From IMG/VR virus record IMGVR_UViG_3300025671_000038: a DNA stretch of 64,000 nucleotides; one strand, 5' to 3'. The notes under the pieces are model-generated. The model made no database searches, was not told the DNA's origin, and saw only the letters and a program-made list of their open reading frames with translations. This DNA is from a virus. Position numbers and translations under genes: made by a program. Positions 1,461 through 54,341 of the stretch are shown one piece after another; positions within the stretch are counted from its first letter, which is position 1, and the number at the start of each line of letters is the position of its first letter.

Positions 1461-2054
1461 ATGAGACATATTCAGATTTTTGAAAATTATAGTGATTCGG
1501 ATTTCGAAATCCCTAGCGCTTTTCAACTTGGAGACGGGTTTGATCCAGTAAAGGCAAAAAAAGCCGTCGAGGAAGCATCTGAAGAAAGAGGTGGGAAATC
1601 CAAGGAAGACCGAGGTTTGAACTTTCCTAATATAAAAGAGGTTTACGGTACAGACTCATATAACACGAGATTTTATATAGCGCAAGCTCTCCACATCTTG
1701 GGATATTCACTATTTCCTTATAATAGCCATTTCCCATTGGAAAAAGCTAAACCTGGAGACATAGCTAAGATGACTTATTATATTGGTGAACCCTGGCAAA
1801 ATGAGATCATGAAGAATATTTCACCTAAGCTACTAAGAGCTATAGCACCCTGGGTGGAAAAAATCATGCTTTACCCTGATAAATTCCTTAGAACTAATGT
1901 AGACTTACAAAGGACCACTAAAAGTCCAGGAGTTGCAAGAGAGTCTAGGATGATTCTCCCGATGGTTAGTAAATTGGTTGCGGATTCCTCTCTGGAGAAA
2001 ATAGACGGTAAGGGAATTCCCACATATCTGAACGTCTATCGTAAGCTGTCTTAA
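1461..2054 (+). CDS. hypothetical protein with capsid-targeting-like leader (MRHIQIFENY)
   Basis: 197 aa; preceded by GATATATA; leader resembles other late genes. Confidence 0.6.
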   Translation: MRHIQIFENYSDSDFEIPSAFQLGDGFDPVKAKKAVEEASEERGGKSKEDRGLNFPNIKEVYGTDSYNTRFYIAQALHILGYSLFPYNSHFPLEKAKPGDIAKMTYYIGEPWQNEIMKNISPKLLRAIAPWVEKIMLYPDKFLRTNVDLQRTTKSPGVARESRMILPMVSKLVADSSLEKIDGKGIPTYLNVYRKLS

Positions 2055-2085
2055 TAACAGGAACAGTTTCGGGTAAAATAACCAT

Positions 2086-2142
2086 TTGGCACTTTAGCCC
2101 CTTATTCACTTGGCACTTTAGGGCATATTTATTTGGCACTTT
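2086..2142. repeat. three direct repeats TTGGCACTTT
   Basis: Exact copies at 2086, 2110 and 2133, intergenic upstream of the LamG array. Confidence 0.8.
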
Positions 2143-2208
2143 GTGTTTAGCAATATAATCTGATTTTTTACTCCGAGTGAGGGTGAAATTTCCGAATATA
2201 TAAGGCAC

Positions 2209-3270
2209 ATGCCAAATACCATAAAATATAGCGAAACCCCAGAAAGCAATTCTTTAAATGTAAGAAATTGGTGGATTGGTGCTGGGGATGTAGGTAAAGG
2301 ACCAACCAACTTAACCGGATTTTGGAATGGAGTCGATCCTCCGGCAGGTGGCTGGACCATCTATATAAACAAGGCAACTAAAGGTCCAACGATAGATGTT
2401 GCTAACAATAGTTCCGAACTCATAGCAAAGACAAACGCAATGGCTGGAACCTCATACACAACAGTGGATGAGTGCTTCGATTATTTTGCTACACAGAACG
2501 ACAAATTACTTTGGGGAGGAGAGGTTAGTCCTGTAATTACTGATGGACTTCAAAGCTACATAGATTTTTCCTCCACCGCATGCTTCCCCCGAACAGGTAA
2601 TAAATTCTACAACTTAGCTAATTCTGGAGTTGGATATTTTCAATCAGCAACATTCTCAACTGGTGACGACGGTAAAGTTACAACAACGGGGGGTAATGAC
2701 GGTACTGTTAATTACGTGGGTAGTAGAATCAATATTAACACGACCTCTGATAATTTAGACCGGTTCGGGAAGACCAATGATTGGTCGATAGCCTTTTGGG
2801 TTAAATATACTGGCAGCGGGACGAGAATATTCTCAACTGGATCTGCAGGATCTGGCACAACTGACTCGTGTGTTTGGCAGTTTTATCTTTTGTCTAGCCA
2901 ATTTTATTGGTGGAACTCCGGTGGAGGTGGTACAAATAATATTTACTGCTATACATCCTCTGTACCAACCAACTCTTGGTCATACATCACAATTACATAC
3001 AAATACGACGAATCCGGGGATAACGTTGTTAGGGTTTACAGAAATGGATCCCAGGTAGGAACTGGTTCTACCCCTACTGCAACACACGATGCTAGGGATA
3101 GAAGAGGGCAAACCAATCTTCAGTACACTTTGGGTGGTGGATATAATGGTTCTTGCAGAACAGCAAATAGTGCTGGAGAATATGCTATTTTCCAGGTTTA
3201 TAACAGAACACTCACCTCGGAGGAAGCAACAAGGAACTACAACCTAACAAAATCAAGATTCGGTCTATAA
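2209..3270 (+). CDS. LamG/concanavalin A-like lectin domain virion fibre protein, paralogue 1
   Basis: Conserved array N-terminus; WSIAFWVKY, WSYITITY, VYRNG, YNRTLTSEE..RNY..KSRFGL. Confidence 0.8.
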   Translation: MPNTIKYSETPESNSLNVRNWWIGAGDVGKGPTNLTGFWNGVDPPAGGWTIYINKATKGPTIDVANNSSELIAKTNAMAGTSYTTVDECFDYFATQNDKLLWGGEVSPVITDGLQSYIDFSSTACFPRTGNKFYNLANSGVGYFQSATFSTGDDGKVTTTGGNDGTVNYVGSRININTTSDNLDRFGKTNDWSIAFWVKYTGSGTRIFSTGSAGSGTTDSCVWQFYLLSSQFYWWNSGGGGTNNIYCYTSSVPTNSWSYITITYKYDESGDNVVRVYRNGSQVGTGSTPTATHDARDRRGQTNLQYTLGGGYNGSCRTANSAGEYAIFQVYNRTLTSEEATRNYNLTKSRFGL

Positions 3271-3278
3271 TATCAAGG

Positions 3279-4157
3279 ATGGTTATAAAAAATATTGGTA
3301 CCTCTGCAGATAGTCGAGCATTTAAAAAGGGTAATGTTGCGATAGGGGATAAGCCATATGGTTATGGTCCGACCACTGTTACTGGTTATTGGAACGGTAT
3401 CGATCCTCCGTCGGGTGGTCACACATTGTATTTAATGGGTAATGCATCAACTACGGTTTCACCTTCAATCTATACCGCTGATTCGAATTCAGAATTAATT
3501 AACTTAGTTAATCTGATCACAGGTCAGAATTACACAACCATTCCGCAGGTTTTAGCATACGTAAATTCGGATAACAACGTTTACTTAGATAGCGATATTT
3601 CACAGAATGCAGTTATGATGGTTGATAGCTACGATCAGCAATCCTATCCAGGTAATGGAAGTATTTGGTATGACATCTCAGGAAACGGTAATAATATAAC
3701 CTTGTATAACTCCCCATCCTATACTAATAATAACATAGACTTTGATGGAGCAAACGATTATGGAAAAATAGCTTCGACAACATATCGCTCAATATCTTTA
3801 TGGGGATATCAGACAAATTCAGGGCCTAGTGGTTGGAAATATCTTTTTGATGCCAGAAGTGGAATGGGAAGCGGTTGGTTCGCTAATAATAGCCAAGGTT
3901 CAAACTGGTCTTCAACCATGTATATAAACGGAGTCTCCGTTAGTAGGAATTGGAGTAATGTTCCGGTGAATTCTTGGTTTCATTTATATATTCAGGCAGA
4001 TAATTCTTATACGGGTACAATAAACTTAATGAGCAGATATTCCAACAACGAGCAACTTGGCGGATATTTGAATTCAATAGAATTATATAATACAACCAAA
4101 TCTGATGACGATATTGCTCTGCTATTTAATTCAAAAAGAAATAGATTCGGTTTATAA
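3279..4157 (+). CDS. LamG-like fibre protein, paralogue 2
   Basis: Diverged array N-terminus; SYPGNGSIWYDISGNGN, FDGANDY; ends RFGL. Confidence 0.78.
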   Translation: MVIKNIGTSADSRAFKKGNVAIGDKPYGYGPTTVTGYWNGIDPPSGGHTLYLMGNASTTVSPSIYTADSNSELINLVNLITGQNYTTIPQVLAYVNSDNNVYLDSDISQNAVMMVDSYDQQSYPGNGSIWYDISGNGNNITLYNSPSYTNNNIDFDGANDYGKIASTTYRSISLWGYQTNSGPSGWKYLFDARSGMGSGWFANNSQGSNWSSTMYINGVSVSRNWSNVPVNSWFHLYIQADNSYTGTINLMSRYSNNEQLGGYLNSIELYNTTKSDDDIALLFNSKRNRFGL

Positions 4158-5137
4158 TGCCAAATGCAATAAAATATAACACAGGATCTGAATCTTTAGC
4201 TTTGAAGAAAGGCAACTGGTGGATCGGTACTGGTGATGTAGGTAAAGGACCAACAAGTACCACTGGATATTACAACGGAATTACACCACCCGCTGGAGGT
4301 TATACAATCTATCTTAGCAAAGAATCTCAGGGACCAGTAATATATGAGTGCCCCGACGTCTCGTCACTGATAGATCTAACCAACAATATTTCTGGCAATT
4401 CCTACACCAGTGCTGATGAGTGCCTTTATTATTACGCTGGGCAATCCGACAAGATGTGTATGGTAAGGGATTTCGAATCCATAATTACGAATGGTCTAAA
4501 CTTTGCTTATGACTTGGAATCACTGGAAACATTCCAGTATCTGTCCAACAGATCAGCTGACTTTTCAAAAAATGGATACGAGATTACCCTCGGTACTGCA
4601 TACAATGCCAAAAGCTCAATTGGAGATCAGGGTTGGCTAAACCAGATTGAGAATATTACTATTCAGGTGGTGCTTGAAAAAATTGGGACCGGGACTGGGT
4701 ATGCGAATCATCCATTATCTAAATGGAACTCATCTTCAACACAAACAGCATCTTTTGTTTTATATCACTTCGAAAATTATCAAAATAACGGAGATGATGG
4801 TGAGATTGGATTTTATGCAAATACCCAAAATAACGGCTGGACTTCATTAACAGGTAGATATACTCTTACACTCGGAGAAACTGTCCTTGTCACTCTCGCT
4901 TATGGGGACGGGGAATCCACAGATCTCTGGATAGATGATACAATAGTCTCAACTGTATCAAATAGGGGAACTCTATCCCCCACTGTATCTGTTGCTTCAG
5001 GCTTAGGTAGAAATATGGAAATATCAACCCCTTTTGGTCACGGTACATCCCTTGTACATAGGGCATTAATTTATGACAGAAGGCTGTCTGATGCTGAAAT
5101 ACTCCATAACTATCAACAAATTCAACCCTCGCTATGA
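4157..5137 (+). CDS. LamG-like fibre protein, paralogue 3
   Basis: Conserved N-terminus; YDRRLSDAEILHNY terminal motif. Confidence 0.78.
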   Translation: MPNAIKYNTGSESLALKKGNWWIGTGDVGKGPTSTTGYYNGITPPAGGYTIYLSKESQGPVIYECPDVSSLIDLTNNISGNSYTSADECLYYYAGQSDKMCMVRDFESIITNGLNFAYDLESLETFQYLSNRSADFSKNGYEITLGTAYNAKSSIGDQGWLNQIENITIQVVLEKIGTGTGYANHPLSKWNSSSTQTASFVLYHFENYQNNGDDGEIGFYANTQNNGWTSLTGRYTLTLGETVLVTLAYGDGESTDLWIDDTIVSTVSNRGTLSPTVSVASGLGRNMEISTPFGHGTSLVHRALIYDRRLSDAEILHNYQQIQPSL

Positions 5138-5271
5138 TGTACACAGTTAAAGAGCTACAGTTAACCGACCCAAGCCTTCCATTCTATGCTGCTGAGGACT
5201 TGAATGGTACCGTGGTTGCTTGGTTTACGACTTTCGGGGAGGCGCAAAAATGGGTTGAAGAAATGAATTAA
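5134..5271 (+). CDS. small hypothetical protein (45 aa, MMYTVKELQL...; not in ORF track)
   Basis: Open frame filling the gap; ATGA overlap with the upstream stop. Confidence 0.55.
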   Translation: MMYTVKELQLTDPSLPFYAAEDLNGTVVAWFTTFGEAQKWVEEMN

Positions 5272-5279
5272 GTTTTACG

Positions 5280-6281
5280 ATGCCAAATACAATAAAATAT
5301 AACACAGGATCGGAATCTTTAGCTCTAAAGAAGGGTAACTTCTACATTGGTACTGGCGATGTAGGTAAAGGTCCGACAAATACCACAGGTTATTATAACG
5401 GAATTACTCCACCAGCAGGGGGTTATACGATTTACCTCAATAAGGAATCTCAAGGACCTTCCATCTATACTTGTGCAAATGATACAGAGCTAATAAGCTT
5501 AACAAATAGAATTGCTGGAACTTCATACACAACAGCAAACGAGTGTTTTAATTACTACCGGGGACAAGCCGATAAAATGATTTTGAACCAGGATTACGAA
5601 GGAATTGTAACGGACAGTTTAATTTTTAGCATAGATGCCGGGTTTATCCCTTCATATCCCAGAAATGGATCAACAGCTTATGATTTGGGTAATTCCATAA
5701 ATGGTACTTTGACCAATTCGCCTTCATTCATCAATGTGAGCGGTGGTACTTGGAGGTTTGATGGTACTGATGAGTATATTTCACTGGGAGCATCAAATGC
5801 TATAGGCTGGGATGTAGATAACTTAACACTGGAGGTCTGGATTAAAAGTGCGGATACAGGGGGAGGTTCGGACCAGTGGTGTGCTTTTATAGGAACGAGA
5901 TATGGTAGAGACATACAAATAGGAAGATATAGCGGTACAACTAATTTAGGAATCCTAGCAACAACGAATGGTGCTAATATCAATCTTCCGGACTCTGGAG
6001 TAAACGTGTTTGACCAACAGTGGCATCATTGTGTTTGTGTTTTTGCTGGTGGAATTTTCTATGTATATGTGGATGGTGTTCTTGAACAAACGAACAGTAG
6101 TAGAACGGGGCAATCGTTGAGTCCTTCCGGTAGCACGTTTGGTGTAGGAGGTTCTCCGCATCCCTCATCTCCCCGATTTTTTGATGGTGATATACCTGTT
6201 GCTAGAATATATAATAAAGCTCTGCTATCATCGGAGGTATCACAAAACTATAACGCTCAAAGGGGAAGATTCGGATTATGA
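5280..6281 (+). CDS. LamG-like fibre protein, paralogue 4
   Basis: FDGTDEY, LTLEVWIK, WHHCVCV, VYVDG, IYNKALLSSEVSQNY..RFGL. Confidence 0.82.
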   Translation: MPNTIKYNTGSESLALKKGNFYIGTGDVGKGPTNTTGYYNGITPPAGGYTIYLNKESQGPSIYTCANDTELISLTNRIAGTSYTTANECFNYYRGQADKMILNQDYEGIVTDSLIFSIDAGFIPSYPRNGSTAYDLGNSINGTLTNSPSFINVSGGTWRFDGTDEYISLGASNAIGWDVDNLTLEVWIKSADTGGGSDQWCAFIGTRYGRDIQIGRYSGTTNLGILATTNGANINLPDSGVNVFDQQWHHCVCVFAGGIFYVYVDGVLEQTNSSRTGQSLSPSGSTFGVGGSPHPSSPRFFDGDIPVARIYNKALLSSEVSQNYNAQRGRFGL

Positions 6282-7303
6282 GTAATACAATAAAATATAG
6301 CACAGGATCGGAATCTTTAGCTCTGAAGAAGGGTAACTGGTGGATTGGAACTGGCGATGTTCCTAAGGGACCGACAAATACCACAGGATATTATAACGGA
6401 ATTACGCCACCAGCAGGGGGTTATACAATATATCTTAATAAGGCATCTCAGGGACCATCAATCTATACCTGTGCAAACGATACGGAGCTTATAAGTCTTA
6501 CAAATTCCATCGCTGGGGCATCATACTCAACTGTGAATGAATGTTTAACTTATTTCGTGGGTCAAGAAGACAAGGTATGCTTTAATCGTGACTACGAGGG
6601 TATTGTAACTGACGGACTTGTTCTAAATTTAGATGCTGGTTTTATCCCATCATATCCTAGAAATGGAACTGTTAGCTATAATTTAAGTAACTCACCGGAT
6701 GGTACTTTAACTAACGGGGTTTCTTTTAGTAGTTCTGATGGAGGTAGTTTTTCATTCGATGGCACGGATGATTATATACAAATTCCCAACGATTCATATT
6801 TATCTTCCAATGTGTTCGGGGATACGAATTATTTTACACTTAGTTGCTGGACATATTTTACACAATTCCAAAATTGGACTTGTATGATTAATAAAGCAAC
6901 TGGGGGTTACTATTCTCATACAACCTCAGGATTATGGTGTAATTCATCAGGTATGATAAGTGCTGTAATAGGTACTAATCAACCTAATAATCCTACTGGA
7001 GGTTATTTAGATGCTAGATATTTTGATACACAATTAAATACCTGGTATAATGTAGTAGGAGTAGCAGATGGGACTTACTTAAAATTATACATAAATGGTG
7101 AATTACAAGAACAAAAACTATTATCAGGTATAACCCTTTCTAGAACTGAAAATAGTGCCCCTATAACTATAGGTAGAAGATGTACAGGATGTAATCCGAG
7201 CCATAATGGGGAAATTGCTAATGTTATGGCATACGATAAAGGGTTATCAGCATCGGAAGTTCTCCAAAACTATAACTCACAAAAAGGGAGATTTGGTCTA
7301 TAA
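6278..7303 (+). CDS. LamG-like fibre protein, paralogue 5
   Basis: FDGTDDY, FTLSCW, WYNVVGV, LYING, YDKGLSASEVLQNY..RFGL. Confidence 0.82.
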   Translation: MSNTIKYSTGSESLALKKGNWWIGTGDVPKGPTNTTGYYNGITPPAGGYTIYLNKASQGPSIYTCANDTELISLTNSIAGASYSTVNECLTYFVGQEDKVCFNRDYEGIVTDGLVLNLDAGFIPSYPRNGTVSYNLSNSPDGTLTNGVSFSSSDGGSFSFDGTDDYIQIPNDSYLSSNVFGDTNYFTLSCWTYFTQFQNWTCMINKATGGYYSHTTSGLWCNSSGMISAVIGTNQPNNPTGGYLDARYFDTQLNTWYNVVGVADGTYLKLYINGELQEQKLLSGITLSRTENSAPITIGRRCTGCNPSHNGEIANVMAYDKGLSASEVLQNYNSQKGRFGL

Positions 7304-17812: not shown

Positions 17813-17854
17813 CTCCTAGGTTTCTGTAGATATATAGTCTAATCGATTAGTTGT

Positions 17855-18520
17855 ATGATTCATCTCCAGAAATATTCCCACGGGTTCAGATTAAATGAAT
17901 CCACCGATAGAAAGAGGTTTGATAGGCCTGATCTTAATTATAAGCTGAATTCCATTGAGCCTTATATAGATAAGGAAACAATGGATGAGCATTACAATGT
18001 CCACTTTGCAGGTTACACGAAGAAATTAAACCAAGCAATTAAGGAAGAGAATATTGATATACAGATGGGGCCTGAAATGCAGGGAATTAAGCAGATACTT
18101 AGAAACGTAAGAAAGTATTCGGACAAGGTTAGAAATAACGGCGGTGGTTTTTACAACCACTACATCTATTTCGAGAATCTAAGTCCTGAAAAGAAGAGAC
18201 CTGCGGGTAGGATAAGACAAGCGATCATAGATAACTTTGGTTCATATGCTTCCTTTAAGAAGAAATTCTCTGAGGAAGGACTTGGAAGGTTTGGTTCTGG
18301 ATGGGTTTGGCTTGTGCAGAATGGGAATAGACTGGATATTCTAAGTACACCCAACCAAGATAATCCGCTGATGGAAAGATCATTTAGGGGTGAGATTTTA
18401 TTGGGAATGGATGTTTGGGAGCATGCCTATTATCTTAAACACAAGGCAGACCGTAAATCATACATCACGGATTTCCTTGATGCTATTGATTGGGATGTTG
18501 TCGAATCCAGAATGAAATGA
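17855..18520 (+). CDS. sodA: Mn/Fe superoxide dismutase (Mn-type signature) with N-terminal extension
   Basis: HYNVH, NNGGGFYNH, FGSGWVWL, NQDNP, DVWEHAYY. Confidence 0.95.
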   Translation: MIHLQKYSHGFRLNESTDRKRFDRPDLNYKLNSIEPYIDKETMDEHYNVHFAGYTKKLNQAIKEENIDIQMGPEMQGIKQILRNVRKYSDKVRNNGGGFYNHYIYFENLSPEKKRPAGRIRQAIIDNFGSYASFKKKFSEEGLGRFGSGWVWLVQNGNRLDILSTPNQDNPLMERSFRGEILLGMDVWEHAYYLKHKADRKSYITDFLDAIDWDVVESRMK

Positions 18521-18536: not shown

Positions 18537-19007
18537 ATGAAAAAGTATATCAAGCACCTCAAGGAATATGAGGATTCAGAATTACTAGATCTCATGGGGG
18601 ATCTGGGGGATATAGGATTTGAAACCTACCAGGGATGGATATTCTCCTGGGATAGCTCCACAGAAAAACCCCTCGTCGAGATAATGATAGCTCCTAGCCC
18701 TAGACAAGCGTTCGAGCTGTATAAAGCTAATGGCTGGTTTGGACCTGATATAGACTATGCATCCAAAAAAAGAAGCTTCGAGGATCTGGATCAAGTTTTC
18801 AAATATCTAGCAGATAACAAGATCATAAACTCCTACAACTTGGTATGGGGATTAAATGCAGTGAAGGAAATAAAAGAACCTGAGTTTATTAATATGCATA
18901 GCATAAATCCTTACTCCCTAGTTAATCTAATCAATTCCAAATTTACTAATGGAGAGGAAAAATACAACTCACTTCTACCGTCGAGGCCGATTCAACTAGT
19001 GCCTTAG
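18537..19007 (+). CDS. hypothetical protein with capsid-targeting-like leader
   Basis: MKKYIKHLKEYE; N-region similar to the 22270 protein. Confidence 0.55.
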   Translation: MKKYIKHLKEYEDSELLDLMGDLGDIGFETYQGWIFSWDSSTEKPLVEIMIAPSPRQAFELYKANGWFGPDIDYASKKRSFEDLDQVFKYLADNKIINSYNLVWGLNAVKEIKEPEFINMHSINPYSLVNLINSKFTNGEEKYNSLLPSRPIQLVP

Positions 19008-22199: not shown

Positions 22200-22269
22200 T
22201 ATTTCATTTTTATATTGTATCTAACCATAAAAGTTCTCTGGATATATAGTTTACAAAATAAAACTAGGT

Positions 22270-22734
22270 ATGACTCTGAAATCTTTTAAGGCTTTTGAAA
22301 GCGATGAGAGGGATCTTCTATCTGATTTAGACAAGATAGGAATTGAACAACATAAAGGATGGCTTGTTTGTACATCAGCCTCATATGAGAGGGATCAGAT
22401 GGGATCTAACGTTTATGCAGTAATAGCAAAAAATCCAGGCGAGGCTTCAGCTTTGATTATGGAATCGATGGGTATTGATGACGAGGATGATCTAGCAGAA
22501 GCAAGAAAGGGAGGGGATTTTATAGACGGACTTCAGGAAGCAATGAGTAACATCATGTCATGGGAAGGAAGGTTTGAGGTCGTAAAAGTTCATGATGGTC
22601 TTAGCCCCTTCAAAATGGAAGATTATTGTCTTGAAATAGATTGGACAAACCCAATCATGGCGGCTAAAGACGTGAAATACGTCTTTCCGAATGCCGAGCA
22701 AATCCTAGGTTCCAAAATGTCTTCCCCCAGGTAG
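22270..22734 (+). CDS. hypothetical protein with capsid-targeting-like leader
   Basis: MTLKSFKAFES; GATATATA at 22241. Confidence 0.55.
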   Translation: MTLKSFKAFESDERDLLSDLDKIGIEQHKGWLVCTSASYERDQMGSNVYAVIAKNPGEASALIMESMGIDDEDDLAEARKGGDFIDGLQEAMSNIMSWEGRFEVVKVHDGLSPFKMEDYCLEIDWTNPIMAAKDVKYVFPNAEQILGSKMSSPR

Positions 22735-24226: not shown

Positions 24227-24808
24227 TTAATCCTTTTTCTTCTTAAGGTTAGCTTTAGCCTGTTTGTAGAGCGCTTTATCCCCTACCTCTGTTGTTCTTC
24301 CACCAACAATGAAACTGTTGACTCTGGCCATAGCCCATTGCTGAGGAGTTGTTCCTGGAACGTGACCGGTTTTCCAAGCTGCATATCCTCTATCCCAAAC
24401 CTTCTTTAGTATGGATAGGGGAAATCTGGATTTGTCTGATTTCTTTTTGAGGGCTTTATAGACGGGACTGTCCTTGCCCATTTTGGAAGATTCCATCATC
24501 TCGTCACCGGGTATTTCTTCGTCTAATATTATCTCTTCTACCAAGTTTGCCACCTCTCGATAGTCCTCATAGGTCATTAATAGATCTATATCGATCTCCT
24601 CCGATTCACCGAAAAGTTCTTTAAACTTTTTGGTGTATTTGCTAACCTTAGTTTTAACCGCCTTACCCTTTCCCGCCTTCCTAGACTTGTAATCAGCATC
24701 CCAAGGACCATATGCTGAAGAATCGTCATCAGCTTTATCCTTGTGCTTTTCGATCTCCCTCCTCATAACACGAGGGTTTGTAGTAAGATATTTCTTGGGT
24801 AGTTTCAC
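24227..24808 (-). CDS. viral basic protein with TPQQWAMARVNSF motif (DUF5824-like)
   Basis: RG.AAW.TGH.PGTTPQQWAMARVNSF; GATATATA upstream (24813-24820). Confidence 0.55.
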   Translation of the reverse strand: MKLPKKYLTTNPRVMRREIEKHKDKADDDSSAYGPWDADYKSRKAGKGKAVKTKVSKYTKKFKELFGESEEIDIDLLMTYEDYREVANLVEEIILDEEIPGDEMMESSKMGKDSPVYKALKKKSDKSRFPLSILKKVWDRGYAAWKTGHVPGTTPQQWAMARVNSFIVGGRTTEVGDKALYKQAKANLKKKKD

Positions 24809-26067: not shown

Positions 26068-26739
26068 TTATACAGATGCCACGGAGGAGGTAAAAAGATC
26101 CCAACACCCAGCGAGATCCTTTTCTTCCGTAGGGCTTACAATAAAGATAGAGATATCTCCATCTCGAAGGACCTGTGAGTGAGGTATTCTGCTTTCTTCT
26201 AACTTGTTAAAGTACTTCCTATGTGGATCGTGGAATCCTAAAACCCCTATCTTTCCGTGCTCTTTAGCTTTTTCTATAAAGGATCCTTTACCCCACGGGA
26301 GAATATAGTCTGGATCTTTCAGAAGAATTTCCTCCTTCGTTTGTGGATCCACCATCAGTATTCCAGACGATCTTATCTCACCGCACTCTTTAACCAGGTC
26401 TTCATATATTTTACCATAGTGAGAATCCTCACTAAAGTGACCCGAGCAACTTGGTGTTGTTGGTATTTCCTTCTTGTGGAGAATTTCTACCGCTTCTCTA
26501 ATTAGGGGATCCAGTGTTTCTTTAAATTCCCTGTCTAATGATGAGCTGAGAATTCCGTTGGATTCTTCTTGGTAGTACCACTTATTTTTTCCTGACTTGG
26601 GAATCAGCCACTTATGGCGGTGAAATTTCTCATGCGGTATGAAGTCCGGTGATATTTTCTGGTCTTTTAAGAAAACCTGGAGATCCGAAGACATCTCCGG
26701 TGTTGATTCAAAAACAGAAAATCTCTTTATAAACTTCAT
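26068..26739 (-). CDS. hypothetical protein with capsid-targeting-like leader
   Basis: MKFIKRFSVFES; GATATATA at 26744-26751 (minus). Confidence 0.55.
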   Translation of the reverse strand: MKFIKRFSVFESTPEMSSDLQVFLKDQKISPDFIPHEKFHRHKWLIPKSGKNKWYYQEESNGILSSSLDREFKETLDPLIREAVEILHKKEIPTTPSCSGHFSEDSHYGKIYEDLVKECGEIRSSGILMVDPQTKEEILLKDPDYILPWGKGSFIEKAKEHGKIGVLGFHDPHRKYFNKLEESRIPHSQVLRDGDISIFIVSPTEEKDLAGCWDLFTSSVASV

Positions 26740-31358: not shown

Positions 31359-32063
31359 TTAGATACTACACCCCGGGGGATTCTTGAACTTAGCTTCAGT
31401 TCCAGATCCCTTTTGTGAATTGTATCTATTCTTCCACCATTTAGCCTGCTCTGAGAGTGATTTAGGGATAGGATGATCTTTGGATGTTAAAACCCCCGTT
31501 GATTGGTTGTATGAATAGGATTTTAATTTGACCTCTATAAATAACCTACATGCAAGAGCTGAGTAAAGAGGCTTAGCTAAACTTGAATATGGAACCATGT
31601 TCCAGTCCATACCTAGCTTGGTTTTTATTTTTTTCTTGGCATCTTCCAGCCTTTTTCTAATATCGGAATTGGCTTTAGGGGTCACTCCCTTGTAACCTAT
31701 GGTTCTAAGAGAGCTGTTCTTATCTAACTGGAAAAGACCCTTTGTGTAGGATGGTCTTGAATATGTGTTAGGGTTTGTACCATAGCAACTTTCCACCTTT
31801 GCTAATCTCGACATAAATTCTTTGACCTCCAGTGGATCTTGAAATATCTCATCGCAGACAATATCGAGTATTTTATCCACGAAGTCTTTTGCCCCTTCTG
31901 ACGAGTAATACCTCTCGTATTTTTCGAACGTATCTGGGTTTTCTGGGATAGCTCTCATAGCATCCCATTCTTCCTCCGATATATCGTATTTAGGAAGTAT
32001 CGGATGTTCGGATTCTCTTTCCAGAAGGATCCTATATTCTTTAAATCGTTTTAGTACCCTCAT
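31359..32063 (-). CDS. lysozyme-like fold protein with capsid-targeting-like leader
   Basis: AKVES (catalytic Glu-like), GLFQL, W...YN; leader MRVLKRFKEY..LLE. Confidence 0.55.
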   Translation of the reverse strand: MRVLKRFKEYRILLERESEHPILPKYDISEEEWDAMRAIPENPDTFEKYERYYSSEGAKDFVDKILDIVCDEIFQDPLEVKEFMSRLAKVESCYGTNPNTYSRPSYTKGLFQLDKNSSLRTIGYKGVTPKANSDIRKRLEDAKKKIKTKLGMDWNMVPYSSLAKPLYSALACRLFIEVKLKSYSYNQSTGVLTSKDHPIPKSLSEQAKWWKNRYNSQKGSGTEAKFKNPPGCSI

Positions 32064-36799: not shown

Positions 36800-37720
36800 C
36801 TATTTCTTGGCCTTGAACTTAAGGTTTATAGGCTCATCCATCCGGTTGTCTATCACGTAACCCGGAGAAACTACCTCAGCTTTTACCCAGTCCCCATCTT
36901 CTCCTATGGGTAATTCTATTATCTCTCCGACCGGTAGCTTTTTCGGGAGCTTCAGATCTTTGCCATCCACGTTTATATTAAGATCTAGCCCTACTCCTTC
37001 ATCCCGGAATTTATCATCGATCCTATTATTGATCTTATCTATTTCACCCTCTACGAATCCTTTGGCGAATTTTACGAAGACCTTGATCTTATTACCCCTT
37101 CCTAGATTGTACTGCTGCTCCTTGGTGTAATCTATTGGTACGGATTTACGATCTTTGTATGGTGATACCTCTCCGCCCTTTACTTCCAGCTTATATACGT
37201 ATTCCGGCTGTCTGGGGATCATTTTGAATGGCCCAGCTGATTCTCCAAAGTTTCTAATTGAATGCTCCGCCTGCCTCTTCTCTATTTCTAATTCATCCAT
37301 GTTTGCCGGATATGGAATTATGGTCATAAGGTTTCCGTCTTTTATCGGGATGTAAACTTGATTTCCCCTACTTTCCTTGGGGATCCCTGTTTTCTCGTCT
37401 TTTACCTCAGAAACTATAATTATCGGATAATCAACGCCGTCATGGGTAATATAGGGAGATATCAGGGGATAGCCAGAGTTACGATCGAAAGCTAATGTTG
37501 ATTTCTCTAGCTTTTGGATCCTCTTGGAAATCTCCTCCTGGATAAGTTTTTTAGCCTGTTCTTTAATCTTGCTAGCCGGAGTAGGTATCTTAGCCAAGAG
37601 TTGCTGAGGGAGTAGAACGTCCTTCATGTTCTCTATTCTTTCCTTCACCCTTTCCTTAAAGTGAGCAGTCGGATCTAAATCCTCCTGAAGTAAAAGCCAT
37701 TCTTTAAAATTAAAAACCAT
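36800..37720 (-). CDS. hypothetical protein with capsid-targeting-like leader
   Basis: MVFNFKEWLLLQED; directly downstream of the M23/GH19 gene. Confidence 0.55.
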   Translation of the reverse strand: MVFNFKEWLLLQEDLDPTAHFKERVKERIENMKDVLLPQQLLAKIPTPASKIKEQAKKLIQEEISKRIQKLEKSTLAFDRNSGYPLISPYITHDGVDYPIIIVSEVKDEKTGIPKESRGNQVYIPIKDGNLMTIIPYPANMDELEIEKRQAEHSIRNFGESAGPFKMIPRQPEYVYKLEVKGGEVSPYKDRKSVPIDYTKEQQYNLGRGNKIKVFVKFAKGFVEGEIDKINNRIDDKFRDEGVGLDLNINVDGKDLKLPKKLPVGEIIELPIGEDGDWVKAEVVSPGYVIDNRMDEPINLKFKAKK

Positions 37721-37734: not shown

Positions 37735-39234
37735 TTAAGCTAGCATAGACCCGTCTGGATTGGAAATATCAAAATTCGACGCATATTCCTTAGCATTCCG
37801 GAGTGCTTTGCTTCCTTCTATATTTTTTCCCCATCCAGAATTGGCATTGGTAGCTGCTTTTAAAGCAGTGTCAAAGTCGATAAAATCGTTGGGGTCATCG
37901 TTTCCGTATTTCCTTTTGGAGTGTTTACTGTTCAGCCTATTAAGGAAAAAGAGAGCTGCTATCTCTGCAGCTATTTTTGGGTCATTTACCATGCTCGGAT
38001 TGTTCACTATATCTACATTAGTGCCGTTCTTCCTTAGAAGATCATTATACTTCTTATAGCTATCCTTGAAGGTAAGCTGGTTAAACCCTCTTCCTCTGTA
38101 TTTAGCTCCATCCCCCGGAGAATCGTTTCCGTATCGCCCACCATAGACAACATCCCAGAATCTATCTACATCTTTCTTGAGATCGGTCAATTCGGATTCA
38201 GTGTAGTTTGAAACCCTGCTTCCAAATATCTCCCTTATCCGTTCGTTTGATGTTTTATTGTATGGATTCTCGTCCTTAGGTACAAAGTTAGACTCCTTCC
38301 CTATTACACTTAATATTCCCTTTTGTATCAACGGGTTTATAATTCCATACTTATTTAATGCGCTTACAACTATTTCGATATTTTCCCTGTGAGGGATTGC
38401 TTTGCCTCTGGGAACTATCGCGCCAACCACAGGAGACAATTCGCTATGAAGGTCTCTTGCAACGGATAGCTCTGTCTCTCTACCCTGATTTGCTGACAGT
38501 CTCGAAGGAACTGGGCCTTTCGAAATTGGTTGTGATGAGGTCTGAGGAAGATTTAATAGAGTAAATAAAGGAGTTGAACTAGCGCTTCCCCCTGCAGAGG
38601 CAACCGCTTCCTCCTTCTTCTTTTGCAGAAACTTAAGAAATCCCATCACATTGGAACTGGATTTGCTTCCGCTATCAGAGTAGTCTTGATCCCACTTTAT
38701 ATCAGCGGGGGACATGCCACCGGTGATCTTCCTCCCTTTCTTGGGTGAATTCGGGTCAATAAGAAGAAGGGACCCATCTTCTTTCATATAATCTCTTATG
38801 TGCTTATCATTGCTTAGACCTATATGAACGTGTGTAGATTTGCTTTTGCCCCATTCCGATATTTCTCCTATTAAGTCTCCAGCTTCTATCTTATCTCCGG
38901 GCTTTACTGAAACGTTCTTAAGGTGGGTATAGAAAACCTGTGGGTCTCTGCCAGAGCTGTCAACCGTAACATGTGTTCCATAAACCTTTCCTGATTTTTT
39001 CCCTGTGTCCTTTACTTTCGTTACCTTTCCGCTTGTAATGGAGTATACCGGGGTACCAGCTTTTGCAAAAATATCCCAAGCATTATCCGATTGCCAGTTT
39101 CCTAGGGGTCTGGCAGAATGATCCCTCGGTCCATTTTCGTAGGATCCCCATTTAGGGTCTGTTCCACCGAAGATGGTTACTGCCTCTTTCAGGATCCCGT
39201 TTGAATTCTTGAATTGGTTATAGTTGGAGATCAT
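37735..39234 (-). CDS. M23 peptidase + GH19 lysozyme/chitinase-like virion peptidoglycan hydrolase
   Basis: WDIFAKAGTPVYS...G.V, YTHL, HVHIG (HxH); KES.F, YRGRGFNQLT..SY; start moved to 39234. Confidence 0.85.
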   Translation of the reverse strand: MISNYNQFKNSNGILKEAVTIFGGTDPKWGSYENGPRDHSARPLGNWQSDNAWDIFAKAGTPVYSITSGKVTKVKDTGKKSGKVYGTHVTVDSSGRDPQVFYTHLKNVSVKPGDKIEAGDLIGEISEWGKSKSTHVHIGLSNDKHIRDYMKEDGSLLLIDPNSPKKGRKITGGMSPADIKWDQDYSDSGSKSSSNVMGFLKFLQKKKEEAVASAGGSASSTPLFTLLNLPQTSSQPISKGPVPSRLSANQGRETELSVARDLHSELSPVVGAIVPRGKAIPHRENIEIVVSALNKYGIINPLIQKGILSVIGKESNFVPKDENPYNKTSNERIREIFGSRVSNYTESELTDLKKDVDRFWDVVYGGRYGNDSPGDGAKYRGRGFNQLTFKDSYKKYNDLLRKNGTNVDIVNNPSMVNDPKIAAEIAALFFLNRLNSKHSKRKYGNDDPNDFIDFDTALKAATNANSGWGKNIEGSKALRNAKEYASNFDISNPDGSMLA

Positions 39235-47268: not shown

Positions 47269-47272
47269 CGAA

Positions 47273-48274
47273 TCAGAATTTGTATATTGATAAAACTTCT
47301 CCCTTGGGAGATTTAGCCTCTACGTAGCCATCGTCTGGCACTTCACCCATATCAAAGTAGTAATACCCCGACCTTGAGAGGCTTTTGAAATCGAAAGTGT
47401 GGAGAGGGTTTCCTTCCTTGTCCTTATATCTTATTGTTACAGCCTCTATATTAGCCAGAGGGGAGAATGTAATTCTTCTGCCTGATTCGATTGTATCTTT
47501 ATGCCATTGCCCTATTAACCCCCCGGCAAATCCGGATAGCAATTTGAGTATCTCTACCCTCTCATCTCTAGCGTATGATGTCACATGAACTATGAAATCT
47601 CCGGGCTGCCAGAGATTCTCCACCATATGGGGAAAGGAGTGTATAATATAGGGGTTTTTAGGATACCAGAATCTATTTAATTTTTTCTCTTCAACTAGCT
47701 TAATCCCATTTCTCCAATGATCCTTTCGGTACGATAATCGGATCTGTCTCATCTCGTGGTCAAACTCACCAAGTCCCATTCCTTCTGGCCAGTCAGGAGC
47801 TTCCCATATCTCTTGTAGGAATTGTTTAGACTTTTCACAATTCTTTATCAGAATATGTGAAGACATGATGTTGTTATCCCTGTATCCTCCACCTATACCA
47901 TTATCTGGAGAGCCACCTCCCTTTGGCATTACAACAAACTCGTCACCCACGGGGATAAGATCCTCTAATTTTTTACCGAAATTCATGAATAGGCAATCAC
48001 AGTCTATAAAAAAGATCCACGGGTTTTCTACCTCGTCAAGCAATTTTCTTAGCAGCTTAATCTTTCCCCATTGAGCTGGTCTCCCCTCAAGAAACGATTC
48101 ATCTATCTTTTCCCCCCTGAGATCGTAATCATGAAGAGAGCAATACCCGGAAAAATTTCCATGTATGGTTATATCCGCCATACGAGAGTAGTGATCGTCA
48201 TACATGGAAACAACTAGGATCCTCCCGTCCTCGAGAGAATTGTATCCGATGGTCCACTCTACAGATTTCATCAT
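47273..48274 (-). CDS. GT34 (GMA12/MNN10-like) glycosyltransferase
   Basis: WGKIKLL, WIFFIDCDCLFMN, LIKN...S..FL..IW, WQPGDFIVH. Confidence 0.8.
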   Translation of the reverse strand: MMKSVEWTIGYNSLEDGRILVVSMYDDHYSRMADITIHGNFSGYCSLHDYDLRGEKIDESFLEGRPAQWGKIKLLRKLLDEVENPWIFFIDCDCLFMNFGKKLEDLIPVGDEFVVMPKGGGSPDNGIGGGYRDNNIMSSHILIKNCEKSKQFLQEIWEAPDWPEGMGLGEFDHEMRQIRLSYRKDHWRNGIKLVEEKKLNRFWYPKNPYIIHSFPHMVENLWQPGDFIVHVTSYARDERVEILKLLSGFAGGLIGQWHKDTIESGRRITFSPLANIEAVTIRYKDKEGNPLHTFDFKSLSRSGYYYFDMGEVPDDGYVEAKSPKGEVLSIYKF

Positions 48275-52077: not shown

Positions 52078-52093
52078 ACCAATGGGAGGATTT

Positions 52094-52924
52094 TTATTCG
52101 GAGGCTGAGACTGCTCTACCTTTCATTTTTTCCCAATCCCTCTCCGGTCTTACCTCCAGGTTGGTTTTCCACCCGCCTTCTATAGTGTTCAAAGGAGCAC
52201 CAGCTTCCCTTGCAAAGGAAATCATTGCATTAACATCTTTGGGAAAACAAGTTCCCCCATATCCCATTTTCCCGTCTGGTCCGGGAACATGGAGGTGTGA
52301 ATCACCAACTCTACCGTCGGAAGCGAATCCATGAATAGCATCGTCCCAATTAATTCCTATCACTTTACCAAGTCTGTGGAATTCGTTCATCATAGACACC
52401 TTGGTTGCAAAAAAGGTGTTATTCATATACTTGATATACTCCGCTGTTGTAGAATCTGTGTAGATGATATGCTTATTCATGAATCTCTCTGAAAATAGCT
52501 CCCCTACCTCACGTGTAAAATTCTCATCACCCCCAAGGATAATCCTCGCCTGTGTCAATATGTCAAGCTTTGCTGTCCTCTCTGTTAGAAATTCAGGTGA
52601 GAATATTATCCGGTATCCAAATTTATCTATAAGACTCCTTGTTGTCCCTGGTAGCACAGTCGACTTTATGATGAATATGGAATCTGGTGAGGGTATAACG
52701 GATTCGAAGAAATCCTCAATAAAAGATAAATCTTGTGTTCCGTCGGATCTCATCGGAGTTGGCAAACAAACAAAGATGTACTTCTGTTCTAATACTTCTG
52801 CTAGATCGTGTGTCCTCCTCTTTTTATCTATGTCGTAAACTCTAACATCAGCGACGGGGGAAAAGGCGAAAGCCTGTGCTTCTCCGACAAACCCATTGCC
52901 TACAACTCCTACTGTTTTTTTCAT
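52094..52924 (-). CDS. UDP-glucose/GDP-mannose dehydrogenase family (short form)
   Basis: GNGFVG, FVCLPTP, KSTVLPG, SPEFL, KYMNNTF.A.K, GYGGTCFPKD; C-terminal domain absent. Confidence 0.88.
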   Translation of the reverse strand: MKKTVGVVGNGFVGEAQAFAFSPVADVRVYDIDKKRRTHDLAEVLEQKYIFVCLPTPMRSDGTQDLSFIEDFFESVIPSPDSIFIIKSTVLPGTTRSLIDKFGYRIIFSPEFLTERTAKLDILTQARIILGGDENFTREVGELFSERFMNKHIIYTDSTTAEYIKYMNNTFFATKVSMMNEFHRLGKVIGINWDDAIHGFASDGRVGDSHLHVPGPDGKMGYGGTCFPKDVNAMISFAREAGAPLNTIEGGWKTNLEVRPERDWEKMKGRAVSASE

Positions 52925-52935
52925 ATTTGTAGATT

Positions 52936-53769
52936 TTATTTTTTGTACATTAAATCAAGACTTTCCTTATAGTCCCTTATCCTATCCTTTATTTCCTTTC
53001 TCGGATTCCATCCGGGAAGTCTTCTATTGACATCAGCACAGGTTAAAAATTGATATCCTGTTGGTATTTTCTCCTCGGTCGTGTAGGTGTAAGGTATACC
53101 AAATATGGTCATGAAGTCTTCGAAATAGCAAGGGGTTCCAGTCCCTATGTCCCAGGTAGTTCCTGTTCTAACTTCCTCCATGGCGACTATATTAGCACTA
53201 ACGATATCGTCCACGTGGATAAAATCACGCATAGGCTTTTTAGGAAATAACTCCATGACGTCAAGGGACTTCTCTACATAAAATTTATAGTAAGCCTGGT
53301 ATGCTACGGAGGCCATCCTACCCTTATTTTGCTCACCAGGTCCGAAAACATTGAAATATCTTAGACAAACGGCTGCTGACATTCCATGGAGAAATCCCTC
53401 TGCACTATATTTTGACCAAGCATACAAGTTTGAAGGCTTTTCCCCGTCGGTTCCGTAACAAGCTGCAGAAGACGAATAAACCATCTTGACTCCATATTGC
53501 ATACACAAATCTCCCAGATATTTGGAAAACTCGTAATTGAGGAACATCATGTAATTTACATCTTGGTTCAGTGTGTCTGAACAAGCACCTACATGAAAAA
53601 CCCCATCCAGGCTTACCCCCTTAAATATATTCTCAAGAGCTTCTTTCCAATCCGGCCTCATGACATCTTCCTCCTCGAAAGAAAATACCGAATTTCCCTG
53701 GACCATCAGGGTATCCTTTAGATTGCTTCCTATAAATCCAACGGATCCGGTAACCAAGTAGTTCTTCAT
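52936..53769 (-). CDS. ADP-L-glycero-D-manno-heptose 6-epimerase-like SDR (HldD/RfaD-like)
   Basis: GSVGFIGS, FHVGACSDT, YSSSAACYG, P.NLYAWSK, LRYFNVFGP.E..KGRMASV. Confidence 0.85.
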   Translation of the reverse strand: MKNYLVTGSVGFIGSNLKDTLMVQGNSVFSFEEEDVMRPDWKEALENIFKGVSLDGVFHVGACSDTLNQDVNYMMFLNYEFSKYLGDLCMQYGVKMVYSSSAACYGTDGEKPSNLYAWSKYSAEGFLHGMSAAVCLRYFNVFGPGEQNKGRMASVAYQAYYKFYVEKSLDVMELFPKKPMRDFIHVDDIVSANIVAMEEVRTGTTWDIGTGTPCYFEDFMTIFGIPYTYTTEEKIPTGYQFLTCADVNRRLPGWNPRKEIKDRIRDYKESLDLMYKK

Positions 53770-53840
53770 AGAGATCGTTTACTCTATGATATGGACCCAA
53801 TTAAGAAATATTTCGATTAGTGGAATTTATTTGTGTGGAA

Positions 53841-54341
53841 TTATGAATAATAGTCCCACTCAATATCTTCGAAATCAATATCAACGATCTCATATCCAGC
53901 GTATTCACTCCCTCCAACGTCTGCTGGGAAGCTAAATACATATTTCTCATCGTTGGTTACACCGCTTAGAAATCCTAATCCCTCACGTGGCTCAGTGATT
54001 TCCAACTCGTCAATTATAACGATGTCCTCTAATCCATCAGGTCTGGTAACGACAACCGCTTCTGCTTGATCTCGATTAAAAAAATTAATGACCTTTTGTG
54101 GATCTACTTTACCCGAATCATCCAGAAAGACAGAATAATCGGCGTAGATACCTTTCTTCCCATTCTTTTGTGCTTCTACCCACTCAGCTATTTTTTCAGA
54201 TATCTCCTCGAGATCAAATTTATCTCCTCCTGGAAACAGGCGGCGTATAAATTTTACTCCCCTACTGTGCTTCCTCTGCGGGAAGGAGGATGCTTTTTTT
54301 CCAAGATAATAATCCTCAAATAGATGTAATCTTTTCATCAA
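53841..54341 (-). CDS. hypothetical protein with capsid-targeting-like leader
   Basis: MKRLHLFEDY (ATG 54338); GATATATA at 54344-54351. Confidence 0.55.
   Translation of the reverse strand: MMKRLHLFEDYYLGKKASSFPQRKHSRGVKFIRRLFPGGDKFDLEEISEKIAEWVEAQKNGKKGIYADYSVFLDDSGKVDPQKVINFFNRDQAEAVVVTRPDGLEDIVIIDELEITEPREGLGFLSGVTNDEKYVFSFPADVGGSEYAGYEIVDIDFEDIEWDYYS

What the first reader, a model, noticed from the sequence alone, without database searches (positions are those of the whole stretch)
1461..54341. Family of unrelated proteins sharing a T4-like capsid-targeting leader: a putative injected cargo set
Seen: nine otherwise unrelated ORFs begin M-x(1-4)-[K/Q/H]-x-[F/Y/L]...[L/F]-x(0-1)-E: MRHIQIFENY (1461), MIHLQKYSHGFRLNES (SOD), MKKYIKHLKEYE (18537), MTLKSFKAFES (22270), MKFIKRFSVFES (26739), MRVLKRFKEYRILLE (32063), MVFNFKEWLLLQE (37720), MISNYNQFKNSNGILKEA (39234), MKRLHLFED (54338). 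Six have GATATATA directly upstream; two more lie just downstream of such genes. Known: T4 internal proteins use a short leader such as MKTYQEFIAE, cleaved after Glu by the prohead protease. Inference: these proteins are packaged in the head and delivered at infection, and most have no known function.
Basis: partly seen in the sequence, partly recalled or inferred. Interest (0 to 1): 0.8.

Follow-up and report, generated by a model that had tools for sequence, protein, structure and literature searches.

The report
T4-style capsid-loading leaders, freshwater huge phage
Nine late genes of an uncultured freshwater giant phage, among them a superoxide dismutase and a cell-wall hydrolase, start with a short tag built like the one phage T4 uses to load proteins into its head, so they are probably packed into the virion and delivered with the DNA, though nobody has measured this.

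Summary
The nine N-termini and the GATATATA sites are real. In this window alone the motif is only weakly above chance (p about 0.01-0.04). Relatives settle it. The window shares 35 of 101 proteins with complete 270-343 kb IMG/VR phage genomes. There, leader-type words are the top or near-top N-terminally enriched words, and 0 of 1000 composition-preserving shuffles reach the observed count. Seven listed leaders rank 1-11 of 100 window proteins for likeness to N-termini of those proteomes. This lineage has a T4-type capsid protein and a gp21-type (Peptidase_S77) protease fused to a scaffold, in 5 of 5 records searched. T4 IPI-III leaders reduce to the same word classes. Viral SODs almost always carry such a leader in front of the enzyme, and fusions keep a hydrophobic-x-Glu site there.

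Best reading, confidence 0.6: a T4-like capsid-targeting propeptide on a variable late cargo set. Packaging and cleavage are untested, and the window's own protease gene could not be seen.

The scan found the same thing before, in neighbouring windows of this genome and in other phages. Novelty: new member of a known kind.

The parts
1434..1441 (+). GATATATA late-promoter-like site, 19 nt before the ATG at 1461
1461..2054 (+). 197-aa ORF of unknown function. Leader MRHIQIFE|N: Ile4, Phe7, Ile-Phe-Glu8.
   Evidence: No Pfam or PHROG family. Rank 1 of 100 for leader-likeness.
17829..17836 (+). GATATATA site, 18 nt before the SOD start
17855..18520 (+). Fe/Mn superoxide dismutase with a roughly 20-aa N-terminal extension, MIHLQKYSHGFRLNE|S
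   Evidence: Pfam Sod_Fe_N starts at residue 22. The 25 listed of 30 phage-collection matches start at query residue 15 or later. Viral homologues carry leaders at the same place.
18537..19007 (+). 156-aa ORF, 16 nt after the SOD stop. Leader MKKYIKHLKE|YE. Distant paralogue of 22270.
   Evidence: Rank 2 of 100.
22241..22248 (+). GATATATA site, 21 nt before 22270
22270..22734 (+). 154-aa ORF. Leader MTLKSFKAFE|S, kept in the 13 homologues aligned out of 26 found.
   Evidence: Rank 3 of 100.
24227..24808 (-). 193-aa basic protein from a GTG start 4 nt after GATATATA (24813-24820). It has no N-terminal leader but an internal leader-like stretch. Tenth candidate cargo.
   Evidence: phrog_3041 matches its C-terminal part. 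Homologues in G001, G002 and G009.
26068..26739 (-). 223-aa ORF. Leader MKFIKRFSVFE|S. GATATATA at 26744-26751, only 4 nt before the ATG.
   Evidence: Homologues in G001 and G002 begin MIYSFSVFES. Rank 4 of 100.
31359..32063 (-). 234-aa ORF. Leader MRVLKRFKEYRILLE|R. Third gene of a same-strand run behind GATATATA at 32483-32490 (genes 32253-32462 and 32041-32247 precede it).
   Evidence: The closest homologue P0027 has a different leader of the same build. phrog_3108.
36800..37720 (-). 306-aa ORF, 14 nt after the hydrolase gene. Leader MVFNFKEWLLLQE|D.
   Evidence: Orthologues keep F..W...[QN]E. Only the first 13 residues resemble G009 gene 50949.
37735..39234 (-). 499-aa M23 peptidase plus lysozyme-like protein. 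Leader MISNYNQFKNSNGILKE|A. GATATATA at 39261-39268.
   Evidence: Pfam M23 62 bits, PHROG endolysin 1e-25.. 25 N-terminal against 9 internal look-alikes.
53841..54338 (-). 165-aa ORF. Leader MKRLHLFE|D. GATATATA at 54344-54351, 5 nt before the ATG.
   Evidence: Rank 8 of 100.

Best explanation
THE READING. The nine ORFs, in eight families, carry an N-terminal capsid-targeting propeptide of the T4 type. It has a hydrophobic or aromatic pair three residues apart near positions 4 and 7, followed within 8-17 residues by hydrophobic-x-Glu.

PROPOSED STEPS, all inferred:
1. The genes are transcribed late from GATATATA sites.
2. The leader binds the scaffolding core of the prohead, so the protein is enclosed as the shell forms.
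3. The gp21-type (Peptidase_S77) prohead protease cuts after the Glu and frees the mature protein inside the head.
4. The proteins leave with the DNA at infection.

WHAT IS SHOWN. The motif, its position, its link to the promoter-like site, its recurrence on unrelated proteins in related phages, and a T4-type capsid protein and protease in that lineage.

THE CARGO. It varies between relatives. Here it includes a superoxide dismutase and a peptidoglycan hydrolase.
For: 1. LINEAGE.
- 35 of 101 window ORFs have homologues at 22-74% identity in the complete genomes G009 (270 kb) and G010 (343 kb).
- Both carry the capsid gene used as query, which found 185 related loci in IMG/VR.
- Peptidase_S77 was found in 5 of 5 such records, about 1.5 kb upstream of the capsid gene, inside a 649-691-aa frame that looks like a protease-scaffold fusion. 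Phage PTm1 is annotated the same way.

2. UNBIASED ENRICHMENT IN RELATIVES.
- Leader-type words lead the N-terminal enrichment in G001, G002 and G009, and rank third and fourth in G010. After Bonferroni they pass 0.01 in G002 (all five words), G009 (fkEf, lnEn, flnE) and G010 (klfE, lfEn). In G001 only fEnf passes.
- The five-word set hits 33 of 340 ORFs in G009 and 40 of 468 in G010. 0 of 1000 composition-preserving shuffles reach these counts.

3. LIKENESS TO T4. T4 IPI reduces to fkEf and IPII/III to fnEf. fkEf is the top word in G009.

4. IN THE WINDOW. 5 of 9 GATATATA ORFs carry the words, against 2 of 92 others (Fisher 3e-5). Leader-likeness ranks are 1-11 for seven ORFs.

5. SAME TAG ON UNRELATED PROTEINS. 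37720 and G009 gene 50949 share 8 of their first 13 residues and nothing else.

6. MOTIF POSITIONS ARE SELECTED. The 64%-identical homologue of 32063 has another leader, MKIITPFEDFYPINE. It keeps Phe7, an aromatic at 10, a hydrophobic residue two or three places before the Glu, and Glu15.

7. THE SOD.
- The leader is an extension absent from cellular-type SOD matches.
- By my reading of the N-termini printed, most of the roughly 45 viral SOD ORFs there begin with a leader. Complete phages G003 and G004 also have S77.
- Five fused forms examined (L004, L005, L006, L027, L029) keep a hydrophobic-x-Glu site 3 to 13 residues before the SOD's first conserved aromatic. L027 keeps a whole standalone leader internally.

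8. THE CAPSID PROTEIN. Its N-terminus holds PIIE|S (variants PLIE|S, PIIE|Q, PILE|S) in all 28 distinct sequences, and HSLNE|SAG unchanged in all 28. This has the same form as the leader ends.
Against: - No virion proteomics or cleavage data exist for this lineage. I found no cultured member.
- The window's own genome could not be searched for the protease.
- In the window alone the enrichment is weak.
- Leader coding regions are more AT-rich than other gene starts (GC 0.31 against 0.38, p 0.005). The motif residues use AT-rich codons, so part of the signal could be an expression bias.
- The SOD leader is atypical: rank 76 of 100.
- In the 22270 family the leader is no more and no less conserved than the rest of the protein.
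- Glu8 in two leaders would give a propeptide shorter than T4's 10-19 residues.
- 22270 has Ala, not Leu, Ile or Val, two places before the Glu.
- PTm1 has the same protease-scaffold arrangement but only 3 of the 78 N-termini I examined (of 308 annotated features) carry the words, which is background level.
- The promoter link is not significant in G001 and G002.
Confidence: 0.6

Rival explanations
1. The shared N-termini are a by-product of selection for AT-rich, unstructured 5' coding regions in highly expressed late genes. Lys, Asn, Ile, Phe, Tyr and Glu codons are AT-rich. On this reading the N-termini have no targeting role.
For: The first 15 codons of the listed ORFs have GC 0.308, against 0.376 for the other 93 ORFs (p 0.005). 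In the window alone the order-specific signal is weak: 42 of 1000 shuffles reach the observed count.
Against: Shuffles that keep each N-terminus's composition never reach the observed count in G001, G002, G009 or G010 (0 of 1000 each). Orthologues with different leaders keep the aromatic spacing and the Glu. Internal copies sit at module joints of SOD fusions, where start-codon context cannot act.
Confidence: 0.12
2. The tag is real but serves another partner. It could be a handle for a phage chaperone or unfoldase, a site for a modifying enzyme, or an address to another virion part such as tail, baseplate or head surface, without delivery from inside the head.
For: Nothing here shows where the proteins end up. 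Iyer et al. (PMC7824862, passages) suggest AAA+ chaperones of such phages might move proteins into heads. An earlier scan note (e1-127136) found a shared phage N-terminal tag linked to a radical-SAM enzyme rather than to the capsid.
Against: G009 and G010 show strong leader enrichment and have no Radical_SAM domain: 0 of these 2, against 2 of the 2 larger genomes G011 and G012. The tag matches the T4 capsid-targeting sequence in both its parts and also matches the capsid protein's own N-terminal sites. In G009 a run of leader genes follows directly after the capsid gene.
Confidence: 0.15
3. Some of the nine are chance look-alikes picked out by a loose pattern.
For: My coding of it also catches 24215, and the word set catches 40500 and 43265, which have no promoter site. 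The SOD leader ranks 76 of 100.
Against: All nine lie in GATATATA-headed same-strand runs. Seven rank in the top 11 of 100, and 39234, scored apart, has 25 N-terminal against 9 internal look-alikes. The SOD is supported independently by its homologues.
Confidence: 0.08

Closest known systems
Phage T4 capsid-targeting sequence on internal proteins IPI, IPII and IPIII, removed by prohead protease gp21
   Same: A short N-terminal propeptide on otherwise unrelated, fast-evolving proteins. A hydrophobic or aromatic pair sits at about positions 4 and 7, and the propeptide ends in hydrophobic-x-Glu. T4 leaders were read from the T4 record. Their roles come from PMC9026906 and PMC3012670 (passages). 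Relatives of the window have a T4-type capsid protein and an S77 protease.
   Different: Two leader styles occur: an 8-residue M-K-H-I-K-L-F-E type and a longer F-x-x-F...N-E type. About one ORF in ten carries the words in complete relatives, against about 3.6% and 3.2% by chance. The cargo includes enzymes (SOD, M23/lysozyme hydrolase) rather than only small basic proteins. The protease appears fused to the scaffold. The hosts are probably Bacteroidota, as I infer from related cultured phages. Nothing has been tested at the bench.
Ejection proteins of giant phages of the phiKZ/SPN3US group, processed by their prohead protease
   Same: Many head-internal proteins are cut by a prohead protease and delivered to the cell. 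I saw only the starts of the abstracts of PMC5694885, PMC7411985 and PMC10052503, in the listing.
   Different: That is a different phage lineage with a different head gene set. I did not compare sequences or cleavage motifs here.
'Moraphages', freshwater jumbo phages of Bacteroidota (PMC12619734; abstract and passages)
   Same: Freshwater origin. Genomes of 200-307 kb. T4-like structural core that includes a 'prohead core protein protease'. Glutamine synthetase in nine genomes, and the window has one at 44012-45076. Placed near the Lak phages, which are also the best named capsid matches here.
   Different: Membership was not tested: I had no moraphage sequences, and supplements are closed. 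The terms 'N-terminal' and 'superoxide' do not occur in the paper's main text.

Membership tests
T4-type capsid-targeting propeptide system | Short N-terminal propeptide (10-19 residues in T4) shared by otherwise unrelated proteins | tested here: met
   Eight families share it. The first hydrophobic-x-Glu ends at residues 8-17. Two leaders, at 8 residues, are shorter than in T4.
T4-type capsid-targeting propeptide system | Targeting residues at positions 4 and 7 (Tyr/Phe4 and Phe7 in T4) | tested here: met
   A hydrophobic residue at 4 with an aromatic at 7 occurs in 5 of 9 (1461, SOD, 26739, 32063, 54338). In the other four the pair is shifted by one or two places (compared and PMC9026906). 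This is sequence only, not function.
T4-type capsid-targeting propeptide system | Processing site hydrophobic-x-Glu at the end of the leader | tested here: met
   Leu, Ile or Val two places before a Glu in 8 of 9; Ala in 22270. Actual cutting was not tested.
T4-type capsid-targeting propeptide system | gp21-type (Peptidase_S77) prohead protease in the same genome | not testable with these tools
   No whole genome is held. The window is not in IMG/VR or the JGI contigs. In relatives the protease is present in 5 of 5 records of the same capsid lineage. It is absent from five fragments estimated at 16-36% complete.
T4-type capsid-targeting propeptide system | T4-type major capsid protein (Gp23 family) with a scaffolding core | tested here: inconclusive
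   PF07068 is present in G001 and G002 and the capsid gene in G009 and G010. The window holds no head genes. Kinship rests on 35 of 101 shared proteins.
T4-type capsid-targeting propeptide system | Late expression together with head genes | tested here: inconclusive
   GATATATA precedes both leader genes and tail-fibre-like genes. RNA-library contigs match several leader genes exactly, but they cannot show timing and may be DNA carry-over.
T4-type capsid-targeting propeptide system | Protein found inside virions with the leader removed | not testable with these tools
   No cultured member of the lineage was found. No proteomic paper was found.
Fe/Mn superoxide dismutase (ORF 17855-18520) | Both SOD domains over the Pfam cut-offs | tested here: met
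   Sod_Fe_N 65.9 bits (cut-off 27) and Sod_Fe_C 119.3 bits (cut-off 20.9). Metal ligands were not checked.
Peptidoglycan hydrolase (ORF 37735-39234) | M23 peptidase domain and a lysozyme-type domain | tested here: met
   Peptidase_M23 scores 62.1 bits (cut-off 28.7). Glyco_hydro_19 scores only 16.6 bits, below its cut-off of 25.5, but PHROG endolysin phrog_181 matches residues 287-437 at 1.3e-25.

The most novel reading that the evidence does not exclude
This lineage of 270-434 kb freshwater phages uses the capsid as a delivery vehicle for a large, rapidly changing enzyme kit. Several per cent of all genes would be involved, tagged by two leader styles and released by a protease fused to the scaffold. 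Working enzymes such as a superoxide dismutase would then act in the host before any phage gene is expressed, for example against oxidative or abortive defences.
Probability: 0.35. Interest if true: 0.7.

Novelty: new member of a known kind. Interest (0 to 1): 0.5.

Why it matters
If the tag works as in T4, a simple sequence rule predicts which proteins of these uncultured giant phages travel inside the capsid. That turns dozens of 'hypothetical' genes into a defined set of first-minute effectors to test. It would also extend the T4 loading mechanism to a distant lineage, probably infecting Bacteroidota and related to the Lak megaphages. Finally, it suggests that enzymes such as SOD and cell-wall hydrolases are delivered ready-made. 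The principle itself is long known from T4. The scan has also met it repeatedly, in other windows of this genome and in other phages.

Tried and rejected
STATISTICS THAT LED NOWHERE.
- Loose regular expressions (aromatic-x-x-aromatic, with or without a following Glu) were not enriched at window N-termini.
- A home-made EM motif finder on G001 and G002 converged on a weak, redundancy-driven profile. I dropped it.

FINDING THE WINDOW'S OWN GENOME.
- Megablast of 20 kb against the phage collection found no match.
- An exact 48-nt search in IMG/VR and in the JGI metagenome contigs gave 0 matches each.

SEARCHES FOR THE PROTEASE IN FRAGMENTS. No S77 was found in G001, G002, G006, G007 or G008. All five are estimated 16-36% complete, so this says nothing about absence.

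FUNCTION OF THE UNKNOWN CARGO.
- No Pfam family for seven of the nine, and no PHROG family for six.
- The Atlas search of 26068-26739 gave only chance-level scores of about 0.8; the TYW3 and DUF6919 rows are leads only.
- The C-terminal domain of 31359-32063 has 185 distant relatives of many lengths. Seven of the ten I scanned had no Pfam family; the other three had only unrelated families, CBM_14 or VWA/MAM/LDLa/EGF.

CULTURED MODEL. PTm1 carries the words in 3 of the 78 N-termini I examined, out of 308 annotated features. That is background level. The PTm1 paper itself is not in the library.

RADICAL-SAM READING. Rejected for G009 and G010, which have no such domain.

RNA DATA. Four metatranscriptome libraries hold short exact contigs over parts of the SOD, 18537, 22270, 26739 and 32063 genes, but also over non-late genes. 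Contigs show neither starts nor levels, and parts without cover mean nothing.

LITERATURE. Searches found no paper that links 'capsid targeting' to huge, jumbo or Lak phages, or SOD to phage virions. Only these libraries were searched. Supplements are closed, so genome lists (moraphages) and proteome tables that might bear on this were not seen.

Full report
WHAT THE WINDOW IS. The window is a 64-kb stretch of an uncultured phage with about 40% G+C.
- It has no near match in the phage collection, in IMG/VR or in the JGI contigs.
- No whole genome is held for it.
- Freshwater metagenomes of more than ten studies hold it.
- It carries glycosyltransferases, sugar epimerases, a glutamine synthetase, five tandem lectin-like fibre genes and collagen-like tail-fibre genes. 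It has no head genes.

THE OBSERVATION.
- A simple longest-ORF caller (ORFs of 60 aa or more, overlaps limited, some calls surely spurious) gave 101 ORFs. All nine N-termini are present at the stated starts.
- GATATATA occurs 12 times against 5.2 expected; 0 of 100 shuffles reach 12.
- By my reading, each site lies 4-48 nt upstream of a same-strand ORF start.
- Six sites precede listed ORFs. The other six precede three fibre-type genes (26960, 28082, 30515), a basic protein (24808), and two small ORFs (32462, 45749).
- Three further listed ORFs (18537, 32063, 37720) follow in the same runs.
- 18537 and 22270 are distant paralogues, so there are eight families, not nine.

STATISTICS WITHIN THE WINDOW. 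These are modest.
- Unbiased reduced-alphabet word enrichment shows nothing for the leader.
- A five-word set learnt elsewhere hits 7 of 101 N-termini against 2.9% of internal windows (p 0.026). 42 of 1000 shuffles reach that count.
- The link to the promoter-like site is clear: 5 of 9 against 2 of 92 (Fisher 3e-5).

RELATIVES MAKE THE MOTIF REAL.
- The SOD query found 60 viral loci.
- The two closest, fragments G001 and G002, have SOD leaders MKIINFQDYFSINE|S and MKIINFYDYLPINE|A. Many other ORFs there start in the same way, and many sit behind GATATATA.
- Both fragments begin with the end of a T4-type capsid gene (PF07068).
- That capsid gene found 185 IMG/VR loci, on contigs of up to 434 kb.
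- I fetched two complete members, G009 and G010. 35 of 101 window ORFs have homologues there at 22-74% identity, many of them in a similar (inverted) order, so the window belongs to this lineage.
- Leader words are among the most N-terminally enriched words in all four relatives: fEnf in G001; lfEn, fEnf, klfE, lnEn and flnE in G002; fkEf, lnEn and flnE in G009; klfE and lfEn in G010.
- Shuffles that preserve composition never reach the observed counts there: 0 of 1000 in each.
- I scored each window N-terminus against 865 N-termini of these relatives. The listed ORFs rank 1, 2, 3, 4, 7, 8 and 11 of 100, and the SOD ranks 76 (Mann-Whitney p 1e-4). ORF 39234, scored apart, has 25 N-terminal against 9 internal look-alikes.

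WHY A CAPSID-TARGETING PROPEPTIDE IS THE BEST READING.
- T4 IPII and IPIII start MKTYQEFIAE and IPI starts MKTFKEF...ITE.
- In T4, residues 4 and 7 target and residues 8 and 10 direct processing; propeptides are 10-19 residues long (PMC9026906, passages; PMC3012670, passages).
- In my reduced alphabet the T4 leaders are fnEf and fkEf. fkEf is the top enriched word in G009.
- The lineage has the matching machinery. Peptidase_S77 is present in 5 of 5 records searched, just upstream of the capsid gene, in a frame of 649-691 residues that looks like a protease-scaffold fusion. PTm1 is annotated in the same way.
- The capsid protein's N-terminus carries PIIE|S (or a one-residue variant) in all 28 distinct sequences and HSLNE|SAG unchanged in all 28. 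These have the same form as the leader ends. That they are cut is my inference, by analogy with T4 gp23.
- In G009 a run of leader-bearing genes follows the capsid gene.

EVIDENCE FROM SINGLE FAMILIES.
- SOD. The Pfam domain begins at residue 22. The 25 listed of 30 matches in the phage collection begin at query residue 15 or later. By my reading of the N-termini printed, most of the roughly 45 viral SOD ORFs there carry a leader. These include complete T4-like phages with S77 (G003 and G004).
- SOD fusions. The five fused forms I examined (L004, L005, L006, L027, L029) keep a hydrophobic-x-Glu site 3 to 13 residues before the SOD's first conserved aromatic. L027 keeps internally the leader of the standalone genes.
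- 32063. Its 64%-identical homologue has a different leader with the same key positions.
- 37720. Four orthologues keep F..W...[QN]E. An unrelated G009 protein shares only the first 13 residues with it.
- 22270. The leader is conserved in the 13 homologues aligned.
- Variability. None of the nine has a full-length homologue in G009 or G010, and only the lysozyme half of the hydrolase matches. By contrast, 34 of the other 92 ORFs do have one. This fits a variable cargo set like T4's internal proteins.

WHAT SPEAKS AGAINST.
- Nothing shows packaging, cutting or injection.
- The window's own protease gene is unseen.
- Leader codons are AT-rich.
- The SOD leader is atypical.
- Two leaders would be only eight residues long.
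- PTm1, with the same protease arrangement, shows background levels of the words.
- The radical-SAM tag reading raised by an earlier scan note does not fit. G009 and G010 have no such domain.

KNOWN OR NEW. The principle is T4's. The lineage resembles the 'moraphages' (PMC12619734, abstract and passages) and is related to the Lak megaphages by its capsid protein. In the searches I found no paper that describes such leaders in these phages or SOD as a virion cargo. Supplements were closed. The scan itself has reported the same phenomenon in neighbouring windows of this genome and in other phages.

VERDICT. A real leader family, most likely a T4-type capsid-targeting propeptide (confidence 0.6). 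Novelty: new member of a known kind. Interest 0.5.

Noticed in passing
window 24808-24820, 26739-26751, 54338-54351: In three late genes the start codon lies only 4-5 nt after GATATATA. The G009 orthologue of 24227-24808 shows the same arrangement (CGATATATAGAAT then ATG). If the site is a -10-like element, these messages would be leaderless or nearly so.
   Followed up: partly
window 24227-24808 (-): Basic 193-aa late protein with an internal leader-like stretch (..MTYEDYREVANLVEE..). Its G001 and G009 homologues have ..MDYESFSNSLNE.. and ..VDFDSFGLPDNLFE.. at the same place. Its C-terminal part matches the end of a PHROG named cytidyltransferase (phrog_3041). It looks like a two-module cargo protein with an internal cut site.
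   Followed up: partly
window 2209-7303 (+): Five tandem paralogous genes of 292-353 aa. They begin MPNTIKY.. or similar and the one scanned carries a Laminin_G_3 lectin-like domain. Homologues in G009 and G010 are longer, with repeated domains. Probably exchangeable receptor-binding fibre tips.
   Followed up: partly
G009 46011-47960 (L169); G010 to G013 likewise; PTm1 217853-219547: The prohead protease domain sits in a 649-691-aa frame directly before the capsid gene. This is apparently a protease-scaffold fusion. In the T4 arrangement, as I recall it and did not check here, gp21 and gp22 are separate genes.
   Followed up: partly
G001 1-2267 and G002 1590-3175 (L064, L069): The capsid gene of G002 appears split into two ORFs of 317 and 195 aa. 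In G001 a homing-endonuclease-type ORF (phrog_3339) lies right after the capsid gene's end. This may be a mobile element or intron in the capsid gene.
   Followed up: no
window 31359-32063 (-), residues about 58-228: The C-terminal domain has 185 distant relatives of very different lengths, often at the C-terminus of 800-1300-aa proteins. Some co-occur with eukaryote-type extracellular domains (VWA, MAM, LDLa, chitin-binding). Seven of the ten relatives scanned had no Pfam family, and none of the families found covers this domain.
   Followed up: partly
window 28082-29059 (+): Collagen-like tail-fibre gene. RNA-library contigs from four studies pile up at 28.4-28.7 kb with variant letters and with joints that skip 147-246 bases. 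This fits repeat-length variants or related phages rather than this phage alone.
   Followed up: no
window 26068-26739 (-): An invariant PTTPSCSGHF stretch is shared with the G001 and G002 homologues. Weak Atlas rows name TYW3 and DUF6919, but the scores are at chance level.
   Followed up: partly
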